A stretch of 27,803 nucleotides of DNA, from IMG/VR virus record IMGVR_UViG_2531839664_000018, one strand, 5' to 3'. The translations under genes and the position numbers were made by a program. Of this stretch, positions 1,799-2,233 are shown one piece after another. Under the pieces are notes generated by a model. It had not been told where the DNA came from. It made no database searches and worked only from the letters and a program-made list of their open reading frames with translations. The first letter of the stretch is position 1, and each line of letters starts with the position of its first letter. The DNA comes from a virus (lineage: Duplodnaviria; Heunggongvirae; Uroviricota; Caudoviricetes).

Positions 1799-1809
1799 TC
1801 GGTTTATGC

Positions 1810-1941
1810 TCACCCCAGCAGCCCCGACGAAGACAACATCATCCAGCCCATGGAAAGAAAAAGAGCAACCAGCATTAGTGAAAATGAAATGCCGACGATT
1901 ACACAGAGGATCTTCGCCAGCATTATGAGTTTGTCTGACAT
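1810..1941 (-). CDS. Small hydrophobic protein (43 aa), unannotated ORF between endolysin and Rz
   Basis: ATG at 1941 preceded by AAGGGG 6 nt upstream; [43 protein letters not shown]; stop 11 nt before Rz ATG. Below the ORF-track length cutoff. Confidence 0.3.
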
Positions 1942-2110
1942 AGCTACCCCTTAATTGCCACAATTCACTGGGATACTACCCATAAAAAAGGGATGCTCCA
2001 GACCAGCAAAAATTTCCAGTTTGGTAATTGACTAATCATGAGTCGCAACTCCCTAATCAGTTTGCTAAAATCAATCAAGGCAGCCTCCCATAGCTTACTG
2101 CCATAAACAT

Positions 2111-2146
2111 AAAACCCCGTTTGCAACCAACAAACGGGGTTTTTAC
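2111..2146. terminator. Bidirectional rho-independent terminator hairpin
   Basis: AAAA-CCCCGTTTG-caaccaa-CAAACGGGG-TTTTT: perfect 9-bp stem flanked by A-run and T-run, about 90 nt downstream of the endolysin stop on the minus strand. Confidence 0.6.
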
Positions 2147-2233
2147 TTTTATTCACTTGGGTTTTGCCAGTTCGCAGGATTTCGTGTTATCTGCCCGCGT
2201 TGGCCAACGTCATTTTTAAGCAAAATATTCTGC

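What the first reader, a model, noticed from the sequence alone, without database searches (positions are those of the whole stretch)
1799..2233. Endolysin and Rz are separated by a 435-bp insert carrying a terminator and a 43-aa membrane ORF
In lambdoid lysis cassettes R and Rz normally abut. Here a strong bidirectional terminator (2111-2146) follows the endolysin and a small hydrophobic ORF with a good RBS (1810-1941) ends 11 nt before the Rz start, which itself has no obvious RBS. Rz/Rz1 may depend on this ORF for translation or be uncoupled from the holin-endolysin transcript.
Basis: seen in the sequence. Interest (0 to 1): 0.5.

Follow-up and report, generated by a model that had tools for sequence, protein, structure and literature searches.

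The report
Small membrane genes between endolysin and Rz
The gap between the cell-wall enzyme gene and the Rz gene of this E. coli prophage is real, but it is a common, already annotated arrangement in Shiga-toxin-type phages that holds two tiny membrane-protein genes and a hairpin belonging to a small mobile cassette, all of unknown function.

Summary
On the minus strand, a SAR endolysin (2767..2234) and Rz/Rz1 (1798..1340) are 435 bp apart. The gap holds a strong bidirectional terminator hairpin (2111-2143) and a 43-aa single-pass membrane ORF (1941..1810) with a good RBS, ending 11 nt before an Rz start whose Shine-Dalgarno (SD) sequence is poor.

It is not unusual. The ORF (phrog_4906; RefSeq WP_001280927.1; ECs_5722; Ribo-seq candidate XECs191) sits directly upstream of Rz in hundreds of Stx-type phages, usually after the ant gene. 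It was intact in 90/90 loci, with dN/dS about 0.3-0.5.

It is a nonsense-truncated member of a 44-45-aa tail-anchored protein family (phrog_6632). The hairpin travels with this ORF as a roughly 240-bp cassette, also found among tail genes and in Pseudomonas phages.

Best reading: a chain of tightly packed, translationally coupled late genes, read from pR' by Q-modified polymerase. Rz is probably coupled to the 43-aa ORF and is not transcriptionally uncoupled from the endolysin. Protein functions are unknown; a lysis or membrane accessory role is inferred. An antisense sRNA from the cassette is possible but unproven.

The parts
2234..2767 (-). SAR-type endolysin R (177 aa, N-terminal MNEKIKYGLSAAVLALIGAGASAP)
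   Evidence: PF00959, E 3.2e-24. RefSeq WP_001003112.1 'lysozyme'.
2144..2233 (-). Conserved non-coding 3' flank of R, about 90 nt
   Evidence: Aligned in E. coli Stx phages and in Salmonella phage SPN3UB (about 76% identity). No ORF and no significant fold (z -0.93). Also present upstream of a different hairpin in ant-type phages.
2111..2143 (.). Bidirectional intrinsic-terminator hairpin (A tract 2101-2110, T tract 2144-2150 on the + strand). It forms the left end of the ORF-1 cassette.
   Evidence: -22.8 and -19.2 kcal/mol, z -4.7. The hairpin accompanies ORF-1 in lysis and tail contexts and its stem covaries (AU 16, GC 6, CG 2 at one pair).
2079..2102 (-). ORF-1 leader. A second small hairpin (GGCAG 2102..2098 / CTGCC 2083..2079) holds the SD GGGAGG (2089..2084) in its loop.
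   Evidence: The equivalent hairpin has at least five other stem sequences in relatives: CCTTG/CAAGG, CCTG/CAGG, CATG/CATG, GACT/AGTC and CGTTA/TAACG.
1965..2078 (-). ORF-1: TTG start, 37 aa, [37 protein letters not shown]. It is a nonsense-truncated form (TGA 1967..1965 where relatives have TTA) of a 44-aa tail-anchored membrane protein that would end at TAG 1946..1944, 2 nt before the ORF-2 ATG.
   Evidence: phrog_6632, E 3e-11 for this copy and 4e-23 for the 45-aa SPN3UB copy. The 44-aa form occurs in 29 IMG/VR loci and the 37-aa form in 12 loci. SD -10.2 kcal/mol. Hydropathy.
2043..2071 (+). Putative antisense promoter inside ORF-1: extended -10 TGCTAAAAT at 2063-2071 and a weak -35 TCGCAA at 2043-2048, 17 bp apart. 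This is a prediction only.
   Evidence: Synonymous sites are invariant under both elements (GAT 16/16, TTT 13/13, AGC 16/16, AAA 15/16, CGA 16/16) while neighbouring codons vary. This comes from a codon-unbiased sample including Pseudomonas. The motif alone is not rare (2 found, 1.3 expected).
2078..2150 (+). Predicted antisense RNA of about 73 nt (hypothetical). It would be complementary to the ORF-1 start codon, SD and leader, and would end at the terminator.
   Evidence: Folds into two hairpins, -25.0 kcal/mol, z -5.4. No Rfam family matches. The strand test favours the sense strand: 54 versus 27 G-U pairs.
1810..1941 (-). A single-pass, N-in inner-membrane protein. SD AAGGGG at 1952..1947.
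   Evidence: phrog_4906, E 3e-21. WP_001280927.1. Found in 276 phage records. Intact in 90/90 loci with dN/dS 0.26-0.51. Ribo-seq support for homologue XECs191.
1799..1816 (-). ORF-2/Rz junction: SD-like GGGGTG (1816..1811) overlapping the ORF-2 stop TGA (1812..1810), then an 11-nt spacer (1809..1799).
   Evidence: The same junction occurs in 84 of 90 loci.
1340..1798 (-). Rz i-spanin (152 aa, N-terminal TM) with the embedded Rz1 o-spanin at 1587..1381 (lipobox VSAC).
   Evidence: PF03245, E 9e-40. PF06085, E 7e-21.

Best explanation
The 435-bp gap is a mosaic that is standard for lambdoid phages carrying this SAR endolysin. In the direction of lysis-gene transcription it contains three modules.

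1. A conserved 3' flank of R, about 90 nt.
2. A mobile cassette of about 240 bp. It has a bidirectional terminator hairpin, a structured RBS, and ORF-1, a 44-45-aa tail-anchored membrane protein that is cut to 37 aa here by a nonsense codon.
3. ORF-2, a conserved 43-aa single-pass inner-membrane protein gene that sits immediately upstream of Rz.

The gap holds no predicted sense promoter. In lytic growth all these ORFs are therefore read as part of the pR' late transcript by Q-modified, terminator-resistant polymerase. They are translated as a tightly packed chain: ORF-1, 2 nt in the untruncated form, ORF-2, 11 nt, Rz.

Rz has only a weak SD, which lies inside the last codons of ORF-2. It most likely initiates by ribosomes terminating at the ORF-2 stop (termination-reinitiation), so ORF-2 sets how much Rz/Rz1 is made.

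The hairpin insulates the downstream genes from unmodified polymerase in the lysogen and does not split the operon. ORF-2 is also a functional protein in its own right. Most probably it is a late-made membrane accessory of the lysis system, acting on the SAR endolysin, the pinholin or the spanin TM segments.

Shown: anatomy, conservation, mobility, selection, and published translation of a homologue. Inferred: read-through, translational coupling and the lysis role.
For: Anatomy.

Mosaic structure:
- The R-proximal 129 nt and the ORF-2 half of the gap have different distributions among 234 phage records (alignment).
- The R-Rz junction is occupied in every relative examined. 933W, BP-4795, P13374, Stx1_499 and Sakai Sp6/Sp9 have R-hairpin-ant-ORF2-Rz.
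- PhiR5_2 has R-hairpin-ORF3-ORF2-Rz. H-19B and SPN3UB have R-hairpin-ORF1-Rz.

ORF-2 is a gene:
- phrog_4906.
- Exactly 132 nt in all 16 distinct sequences from 90 loci.
- dN/dS is 0.26-0.51 for the divergent pairs. Pooled pN/pS is 0.54 in frame, against 0.86 and 0.95 in the other two frames.
- Homologues at 60-65% identity keep the motifs SDK..LA.ILC..G.SFS.ML.A.F.S..W..L..SGL.G.
- Ribo-seq for XECs191 in LB: RPKM 12.6, RCV 0.43, coverage 0.55.

Tight packing: ORF-2 overlaps the ant stop (TGATG) or follows ORF-1 by 2 nt. It is followed by the next start within 11 nt in all 90 loci.

Weak Rz SD.

No sense promoter in the gap.

Cassette mobility (139 copies tallied):
- 59 copies lie as R>cassette>Rz.
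- 43 lie as R>cassette>ORF2>Rz.
- 19 lie in tail or baseplate clusters.
- It also occurs in Citrobacter, Pantoea, Brenneria, Yersinia, Providencia, Sodalis and Pseudomonas.

G-U pairs favour a sense-strand role for the hairpins (54 versus 27; the sense strand is more stable in 19 of 25 sequences).
Against: - No experiment here shows read-through, coupling or any lysis phenotype.
- ORF-2 also occurs in a phiP27-like cassette with a GH108 endolysin and two other holins. There a small lipoprotein gene follows it, not Rz. It is therefore not tied to Rz, the SAR endolysin or the pinholin.
- ORF-1 relatives sit among tail genes, which argues against a lysis-specific role for ORF-1.
- The Ribo-seq signal came from uninduced cultures. 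It could reflect lysogenic expression rather than spontaneous induction.
- GGGGUG 12 nt upstream could allow some independent initiation at Rz.
- In this particular strain an IS3 lies between the holin and R, and an IS600 lies downstream of Rz. The cassette may no longer be used here.
Confidence: 0.55

Rival explanations
1. Lysogen-expressed morons. ORF-2, and ORF-1 where it is intact, would be small membrane proteins made in the lysogen for the benefit of the host or prophage, for example superinfection exclusion or envelope modulation. On this view their position in the lysis cassette only reflects a permissive insertion site.
For: - The R-Rz junction behaves as an insertion hot spot. It holds ant, three unrelated small-TM ORF families and a further 38-aa ORF in SPN3UB.
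- ORF-1 also occurs in tail clusters.
- The XECs191 footprints and RNA (RPKM 30) were seen without induction.
- Lambda bor and lom are precedents (established knowledge).
Against: - No sense promoter was predicted in the gap.
- A terminator lies upstream of the ORFs rather than downstream.
- The ORFs overlap or abut late genes on both sides.
- There is no match in PADLOC.
- Low signals in uninduced culture are what spontaneous induction would give.
Confidence: 0.2
2. Antisense-controlled small toxin (type I toxin-antitoxin-like). A promoter inside ORF-1 on the opposite strand would make an RNA of about 73 nt (2078-2150, +). That RNA ends at the bidirectional hairpin and masks the ORF-1 SD and start codon. 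The cassette would be a selfish or defensive module. In this copy the toxin is inactivated by the nonsense codon.
For: - TGCTAAAAT (an extended -10) and TCG of a -35 at 17-bp spacing lie under codons whose synonymous sites never vary in 16 sequences, from Enterobacterales to Pseudomonas. Adjacent codons do vary.
- An A tract precedes the hairpin in every copy, which gives a U tail on the antisense strand.
- The cassette's left border coincides with that tail.
- The predicted RNA folds into two hairpins with the anti-SD in a loop.
- The ORF-1 product is small and hydrophobic.
- Precedent: PasB, an 83-nt sRNA validated by northern blot. It starts inside a 22-aa ORF between tail genes and ends at a hairpin abutting the upstream gene.
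Against: - No transcript data exist for this locus.
- No Rfam family matches.
- G-U pairs and stability favour the sense strand.
- The -35 matches only 3 of 6 positions.
- The motif alone is not rarer than chance.
- The invariant codons could instead serve an AU-rich initiation region. They could also serve an internal SD (GGAG-N9) for the invariant Met14.
- The cassette has no promoter for the toxin mRNA.
Confidence: 0.2
3. The terminator would end the holin-endolysin transcript, and ORF-2-Rz-Rz1 would form a separate transcription unit.
For: The hairpin is strong and has a T tract on the sense strand. Ant-type relatives have a different, sense-only hairpin at the same place. A stop signal after R therefore seems to be selected.
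Against: - No sense promoter lies between 2110 and 1799.
- Q antitermination overrides intrinsic terminators (established knowledge).
- The same hairpin-ORF cassette lies within tail operons.
- Spanins are needed at the same time as the endolysin.
Confidence: 0.07
4. ORF-2 would be only a leader or coupling ORF. Its peptide sequence would be irrelevant and only the act of translating it would matter, because that act brings ribosomes to Rz.
For: The Rz SD is weak and the spacer is a fixed 7-11 nt.
Against: - Purifying selection acts in the ORF-2 frame only.
- Polar residues within the TM segment are conserved at 60% identity.
- The ORF is present without Rz downstream in phiP27-like prophages.
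Confidence: 0.08

Closest known systems
Lysis cassette of Stx-converting and related lambdoid phages (933W, BP-4795, H-19B, Sakai Sp6/Sp9): S - R - (ant) - Rz/Rz1
   Same: The same class II holin, SAR endolysin and Rz/Rz1. The same conserved R 3' flank followed by a hairpin. The same small ORF directly before Rz (annotated as ORF50 in BP-4795, ORF53 in P13374 and ECs_5722/ECs_5713 in Sakai; left unannotated in 933W).
   Different: This copy lacks ant and carries the ORF-1 cassette in its place. ORF-2 starts at its own ATG with its own SD, rather than 5-6 codons earlier overlapping the ant stop.
Morons of lambdoid phages (Juhala et al. 2000, as cited in PMC4104026)
   Same: Extra DNA sits between two genes that abut in other phages, for example K-12 Qin rrrQ/rzpQ. 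It has a mosaic distribution and carries a terminator.
   Different: A canonical moron has its own promoter upstream of the gene and its terminator downstream. Here no sense promoter is found and the terminator precedes the ORF.
Small accessory membrane proteins of lysis systems (P1 LydB/LydC/LydD, P2 LysA, T4 RI, Mu releasin gp25). This comparison rests on my own knowledge of the literature.
   Same: Small TM proteins encoded inside lysis cassettes that use SAR endolysins or need timing control. They are late-expressed.
   Different: No sequence similarity was found (Pfam, NCBIfam, PADLOC). ORF-2 lacks the charged C-terminal tail of holins and the cytoplasmic domain of releasin. No lysis phenotype is known.
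Type I toxin-antitoxin modules (Ibs/Sib, SymE/SymR, hok/sok; a hok/sok copy lies at 13625-13799 of this window)
   Same: A small hydrophobic peptide. A possible short antisense RNA covering its RBS and ending at an intrinsic terminator. A mobile, multi-copy distribution.
   Different: The antisense RNA is only predicted. There is no toxin promoter and no homology to any known family. The strand test leans towards a sense-strand structure.
Prophage sRNAs encoded antisense within late operons (PasB, AgvB/AsxR, HnrS)
   Same: PasB has the same layout: hairpin abutting the upstream late gene, a small ORF, and an sRNA starting inside that ORF. HnrS lies just downstream of Rz in Sakai Sp9.
   Different: There is no sequence similarity, and no expression evidence for an RNA from this cassette.

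Membership tests
Lambdoid pinholin / SAR-endolysin / two-component spanin lysis cassette | Class II holin, lysozyme with an N-terminal SAR segment, and an Rz i-spanin with Rz1 embedded in the +1 frame and carrying a lipobox | tested here: met
   Holin at 4972..4766 (class II holin family in RefSeq; PF04971 on homologues). R is PF00959, Rz is PF03245 and Rz1 is PF06085. The lipobox VSAC was read.
Lambdoid pinholin / SAR-endolysin / two-component spanin lysis cassette | Genes contiguous and co-transcribed from pR' | tested here: inconclusive
   Gene order is kept, but an IS3 (3510-4723) separates S from R and 435 bp separates R from Rz. Co-transcription is not testable with these tools.
phrog_4906 (ORF-2 family) | Full-length match to the family profile | tested here: met
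   E 3.1e-21, residues 1-43 on profile positions 7-49 of 49.
phrog_6632 (ORF-1 family) | Full-length match to the family profile | tested here: inconclusive
   The window copy matches profile positions 2-33 of 45 only (E 3e-11), because its C-terminus belongs to the ...[16 protein letters not shown] subtype and is truncated. The SPN3UB copy matches 1-45 (E 4e-23).
Moron | Inserted between genes that are adjacent in related phages | tested here: met
   rrrQ and rzpQ overlap in K-12 Qin. The content of this junction varies between phages.
Moron | Own promoter upstream of the gene and terminator downstream | tested here: not met
   No sense-strand promoter-like site was found in 1799-2233, and the hairpin lies upstream of both ORFs. 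The consensus scan is crude.
Type I toxin-antitoxin | Small hydrophobic toxin peptide (under 60 aa) | tested here: met
   ORF-1 is 44-45 aa with a C-terminal TM (Kyte-Doolittle mean 2.2-2.4). ORF-2 is 43 aa (mean 2.89). Toxicity itself was not tested.
Type I toxin-antitoxin | Antisense or divergent sRNA with its own promoter and terminator that pairs with the toxin mRNA | tested here: inconclusive
   A conserved extended -10 lies under invariant synonymous sites and the terminator is bidirectional. However, there is no transcript evidence, no Rfam hit and G-U pairs favour the sense strand.
Type I toxin-antitoxin | Toxin mRNA transcribed from its own promoter | tested here: not met
   The cassette's left border lies about 10 nt upstream of the hairpin, and nothing further upstream is conserved between contexts.
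Holin / antiholin | At least one TM segment plus a short, highly charged hydrophilic C-terminus. Dual-start motif in many. | tested here: not met
   The ORF-2 C tail [14 protein letters not shown] carries no charge. No holin Pfam family matches.
Translationally coupled gene pair | Upstream stop within a few nt of the downstream start, with a weak or absent independent SD downstream | tested here: met
   The spacer is 11 nt (7 nt in the BP-4795 type). The best SD is -6.0 kcal/mol at 12 nt. Functional coupling is not testable with these tools.

The most novel reading that the evidence does not exclude
The hairpin plus ORF-1 unit would be a previously undescribed mobile module of about 240 bp. 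It would combine a small membrane toxin or effector with its own antisense sRNA and a bidirectional terminator, in the manner of a type I TA system. It would insert promoter-less into phage late operons (R-Rz junctions and tail clusters) across Enterobacterales and Pseudomonas. ORF-2 and ORF-3 would be further small membrane effectors recruited to the same hot spot, possibly tuning lysis and so Shiga-toxin release.
Probability: 0.2. Interest if true: 0.65.

Novelty: new member of a known kind. Interest (0 to 1): 0.35.

Why it matters
Lysis timing in Stx-type prophages governs how much Shiga toxin and phage is released, so conserved but uncharacterised membrane proteins inside that cassette are reasonable targets for study. 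If ORF-2 sets Rz/Rz1 dosage or modulates the SAR endolysin or pinholin, it would add a component to a lysis pathway that is regarded as well understood.

The hairpin-ORF-1 cassette is a compact, widely spread unit. Its design, with a terminator in front of a promoter-less small membrane gene and perhaps an antisense RNA, differs from textbook morons. It could explain some stray terminators inside late operons.

In this window, however, the arrangement is a common, already annotated one. ORF-1 is truncated and IS elements flank and interrupt the cassette. The local biological importance is therefore probably small.

Tried and rejected
- Rfam at gathering and at E-value thresholds gave nothing meaningful in 1700-2350 or on 12 related loci. 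The best hits were terminator-only matches, for example ohsC at E 9.3.
- Pfam, NCBIfam and PADLOC gave no family for ORF-1, ORF-2 or ORF-3.
- A full HMMER scan of 1.84e9 representative proteins with ORF-2 returned only 13 clusters, all obvious relatives. There is no remote link to a known family.
- The word-indexed protein search with ORF-1 returned only close relatives, because gene callers rarely call its GTG/TTG start.
- The first genome scan failed because I wrote Met for the GTG/TTG start. It was repeated without the first two residues.
- I tested whether the predicted antisense RNA is a known prophage sRNA:
  - PasB has the same architecture but an unrelated sequence, and it lies between tail genes.
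  - HnrS/EcOnc10-12 lies downstream of Rz, not in the gap.
  - EcOnc33 (about 71 nt) lies in the esterase gene.
  - Sakai Sp6 and Sp9 are ant-type and lack the ORF-1 5' part, so the Sakai Hfq-CRAC data cannot test the idea.
- RNAalifold on a MAFFT alignment recovered only the terminator, because the second hairpin is misaligned. I used per-sequence folds instead.
- The + strand promoter-like site at 1935-1964 is not conserved in relatives and was dropped.
- Structure prediction was not attempted. A 43-aa single TM helix would give no discriminating fold.
- A paper search found no description of ORFs between R and Rz in Stx phages, apart from ant.
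Full report
**Where the window comes from.** Bases 1-9000 match E. coli O121:H19 chromosomes at 99.8-99.9% over their full length, for example 2014C-3599. The 1.5 kb around the finding is 100% identical in many O26, O121 and O145 STEC genomes. Some part of it matches 4254 of 5426 complete E. coli genomes. It is a lambdoid prophage with its late genes on the minus strand. In this strain an IS600 occupies 1-1016, and an IS3 (3510-4723) lies between the holin (4972..4766) and the endolysin.

**Checking the observation.**
- Endolysin: 2767..2234 (PF00959).
- Rz: 1798..1340 (PF03245), with embedded Rz1 at 1587..1381 (PF06085). This leaves 1799-2233, 435 bp.
- Hairpin: 2111-2143, called as a terminator on both strands. 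It folds at -22.8 and -19.2 kcal/mol, z about -4.7.
- 43-aa ORF: 1941..1810. SD UAAGGGGUA (-8.2 kcal/mol), stop 11 nt before the Rz ATG.
- Rz SD: the best match is GGGGUG (-6.0 kcal/mol), 12 nt upstream and inside the last ORF codons.
- Hydropathy: one TM segment (residues 11-29, Kyte-Doolittle mean 2.89), both lysines N-terminal, and an uncharged 14-aa tail. This predicts an N-in single-pass protein.

The description is accurate.

The gap holds a second ORF, which I call ORF-1.
- It runs 2078..1965 with a TTG start and the strongest SD in the region (UGGGAGGC, -10.2 kcal/mol).
- Its product, [37 protein letters not shown], matches phrog_6632.
- In 29 IMG/VR loci the same gene is 44 aa (...VVSQLIVAIKG) and stops 2 nt before the 43-aa ORF's ATG.
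- The window and 11 other loci carry TGA where those have TTA, so this copy is truncated by 7 residues. Its TM segment is weakened (Kyte-Doolittle mean 1.2 against 2.2).

**The 43-aa ORF (ORF-2) is a real, known but uncharacterised gene.**
- It matches phrog_4906 over its full length (E 3e-21).
- RefSeq annotates it as WP_001280927.1.
- Homologues are annotated as ORF50 in BP-4795, ORF53 in P13374, and ECs_5722 and ECs_5713 in Sakai.
- tblastn finds it in 276 phage records, nearly all Stx-converting or related phages.
- In 90 fetched loci every copy is exactly 132 nt and open.
- Divergent pairs give dN/dS of 0.26-0.51. For L006 against L009, Sd is 14.5 of 35.5 synonymous sites and Nd is 18.5 of 93.5 non-synonymous sites. 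My own chi-square on these figures gives about 6, p about 0.014.
- Pooled pN/pS is 0.54 in frame, against 0.86 and 0.95 out of frame.
- An exhaustive HMMER scan of 1.84 billion representatives found only 13 clusters. Members down to 60% identity keep SDK, C13, G17, SFS, W33 and the SGLxG end.
- Hücker et al. 2017 list the Sakai Sp10 homologue as novel gene XECs191. In LB it has RNA RPKM 30.0, Ribo-seq RPKM 12.6, RCV 0.43 and coverage 0.55, and is predicted to be an inner-membrane protein (PMC5597208 supplements).

**The R-Rz junction is routinely occupied in this phage group.**
- K-12 Qin has overlapping rrrQ and rzpQ.
- Every relative carrying this endolysin has something between R and Rz:
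  - ant followed by ORF-2 in 933W, BP-4795, P13374, Stx1_499, AU6Stx1 and Sakai Sp6/Sp9.
  - A 60-aa TM ORF (phrog_1115) followed by ORF-2 in PhiR5_2 and most IMG/VR relatives.
  - ORF-1 alone in H-19B and Salmonella phage SPN3UB.
  - ORF-1 followed by ORF-2 here and in phiSTEC1589.
- In ant-type phages, ORF-2 begins 5-6 codons earlier at an ATG that overlaps the ant stop (TGATG).
- In Lys8385Vzw a 31-aa remnant of ORF-1 bridges ant and ORF-2, overlapping the ant stop and ending 2 nt before ORF-2.
- Downstream, the next start follows the ORF-2 stop by 11 nt in 84 of 90 loci and by 7 nt in 3. In the last 3 another small ORF starts about 3 nt after the stop.
- This packing, the weak Rz SD and the conserved GGGGTGA at the ORF-2 end all fit translational coupling of Rz to ORF-2. 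That step is inferred, not shown.
- ORF-2 is not tied to Rz. In phiP27-like prophages the block ant-ORF1'-ORF2 follows a GH108 endolysin and two unrelated holins, and a 61-aa lipoprotein gene comes next.

**The hairpin belongs to ORF-1.**
- tblastn with the 45-aa SPN3UB ORF-1 found 53 phage records. Some lie outside lysis cassettes: between baseplate genes in Salmonella SEN34 and Rac-SA53, and among tail genes in Pseudomonas phage YMC11/02/R656.
- In all of these the ORF is preceded by the same layout:
  - an AAAGCRAAA tract;
  - a hairpin with a CCCCG/CGGGG core;
  - TTTTCTGTTTCTG;
  - a second small hairpin overlapping the SD;
  - a GTG or TTG start.
- A protein-pattern scan of species-representative genomes, which is blind to codon choice, added Citrobacter, Trabulsiella, Sodalis, Brenneria, Pantoea, Providencia, Yersinia and Pseudomonas reactans. 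All show the same layout.
- The outer terminator pair covaries (AU 16, GC 6, CG 2).
- The SD-proximal hairpin uses at least six different stems.
- Nothing upstream of the A tract is shared between contexts. The unit is therefore about 240 bp and has no sense promoter.
- Of 139 copies in the held loci, 59 lie as R>cassette>Rz, 43 as R>cassette>ORF2>Rz and 19 in tail or baseplate clusters.
- A hairpin that sits inside tail operons cannot be an absolute barrier to late transcription.
- Ant-type phages carry a different, sense-only hairpin (GGCACC-GTAAT-GGTGCC followed by a T run) after the same conserved R flank. Some stop or stabilising structure after R therefore seems to be selected.

**Is there an antisense RNA?**
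- For:
  - In the 16 codon-unbiased sequences the synonymous sites of Asp3 (GAT 16/16), Phe4 (TTT 13/13), Ser5 (AGC 16/16), Lys6 (AAA 15/16), Glu10 (GAG 16/16) and Arg12 (CGA 16/16) never or almost never vary. Leu7, Ile8, Arg9, Val13, Lys22 and Phe23 do vary.
  - On the opposite strand these islands read as TGCTAAAAT (an extended -10; window 2063-2071) and TCG of a -35, 17 bp away.
  - A transcript starting near 2078 and ending at the hairpin would be about 73 nt, fully complementary to the ORF-1 SD and start. It folds into two hairpins (-25 kcal/mol, z -5.4).
  - PasB in EPEC is a validated sRNA with exactly this architecture but an unrelated sequence.
- Against:
  - The motif alone is not rare.
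  - The -35 is poor.
  - No Rfam family matches.
  - No expression data exist for a cassette-bearing strain.
  - Across 25 diverse copies the sense strand has twice as many G-U pairs (54 against 27) and is more stable in 19 of 25. This suggests selection acts on the sense-strand structure.
  - The invariant codons could instead serve an AU-rich initiation region after a weak start codon. They could also serve an internal SD (GGAG-N9) for the invariant Met14.

I rate this idea at about 0.2.

**Most likely mechanism.**
- The gap is part of the late operon.
- By established knowledge, Q-modified polymerase from pR' ignores intrinsic terminators.
- ORF-1, ORF-2, Rz and Rz1 would then be made late, translated in a coupled chain, with ORF-2 feeding ribosomes to Rz.
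- In the lysogen the hairpin and the SD-occluding stem would keep the small membrane proteins and the spanins silent.
- ORF-2 is under protein-level selection and is always found at the distal end of lysis cassettes. I infer a membrane accessory role in lysis, without evidence for a specific partner.
- ORF-1 is less lysis-specific and is disabled in this copy.

**Novelty and interest.**
- Existence, annotation and translation of ORF-2 are already on record.
- The R-ant-Rz layout of Stx phages is familiar.
- The window's version is one common variant, found in a prophage damaged by IS elements.
- What I could not find in the literature I searched is any functional study of these ORFs, or a description of the hairpin-ORF-1 unit as a mobile cassette.
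- I therefore score the finding as a new member of a known kind, with modest interest.

Noticed in passing
window 2885-3199 (+) and 3510-4723: The holin (4972..4766) and the endolysin are also separated. An opposite-strand ORF (phrog_1853, E 3.5e-47; RefSeq WP_000138558.1) lies between them, and in this strain an IS3 with its ALIL frameshift pseudoknot does too. In the intact O26:H11 11368 prophage the S-R gap is about 690 bp with the same opposite-strand gene.
   Followed up: partly
window 1-1090: An IS600 occupies 1-1016. Bases 1017-1090 are homologous to the sequence that directly follows Rz in Sakai Sp9, next to the HnrS/EcOnc12 sRNA locus. Here a 74-aa ORF (1316..1092, WP_000735655.1) lies between Rz and that segment. 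Whether an HnrS copy was lost to the IS was not resolved.
   Followed up: partly
window 7415-7666, 8442-8688, 13625-13799, 22794-22845: Rfam gathering-level hits: a convergent AgvB (+) / STnc100 (-) pair, three tRNAs (Arg, Arg, Ile), a sok antitoxin (a hok/sok module), and DicF.
   Followed up: no
window 2144-2233: The roughly 90 nt after the endolysin stop is conserved from E. coli Stx phages to Salmonella phage SPN3UB (about 76%). It has no ORF and no significant fold (z -0.93). Its role (R 3' UTR?) is unexplained.
   Followed up: partly
L002 2657-2839; L010 1886-2002; L009 2135-2251: The R-Rz junction collects further unrelated small TM ORFs. One is a 60-aa family (phrog_1115: MEKYKRILLRL...LAKLVIALKS), which is frameshifted in phiSTEC1589. 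Another is a 38-aa ORF in SPN3UB. The junction looks like a hot spot specifically for tail-anchored or single-pass mini-proteins.
   Followed up: partly
L095 1711-2822: In a phiP27-like prophage the block ant - 31-aa ORF-1 remnant - ORF-2 homologue follows a GH108 endolysin. Next comes a 61-aa lipoprotein gene (lipobox LVGC) rather than Rz/Rz1. No spanin was recognised there.
   Followed up: partly
ORF-1 codons 9-14 (window about 2054..2037, minus strand): An invariant GAG, followed 9 nt later by an invariant Met14 ATG, could be an internal RBS and start giving a TM-only product of about 31 aa. That would resemble the dual starts of holins. The 31-aa ORF-1 remnants in ant-type phages are about the same length.
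   Followed up: no
window 1935-1964 (+): A promoter-like site on the + strand (CTGACA, 18-nt spacer, TG-CACAAT) overlaps the ORF-2 start. It would drive antisense transcription through ORF-1 to the hairpin. It is not conserved in relatives.
   Followed up: yes
L233 1762-1872 (E. coli E2348/69, NC_011601 1466261-1466371): The validated sRNA PasB starts inside an unannotated 22-aa ORF (MKINVKELFLLLGQKNTNAAKL) lying between the tail assembly gene and gpJ. It ends at a hairpin abutting the upstream gene. The layout of hairpin, small ORF and antisense sRNA may be a recurrent design in late operons.
   Followed up: partly
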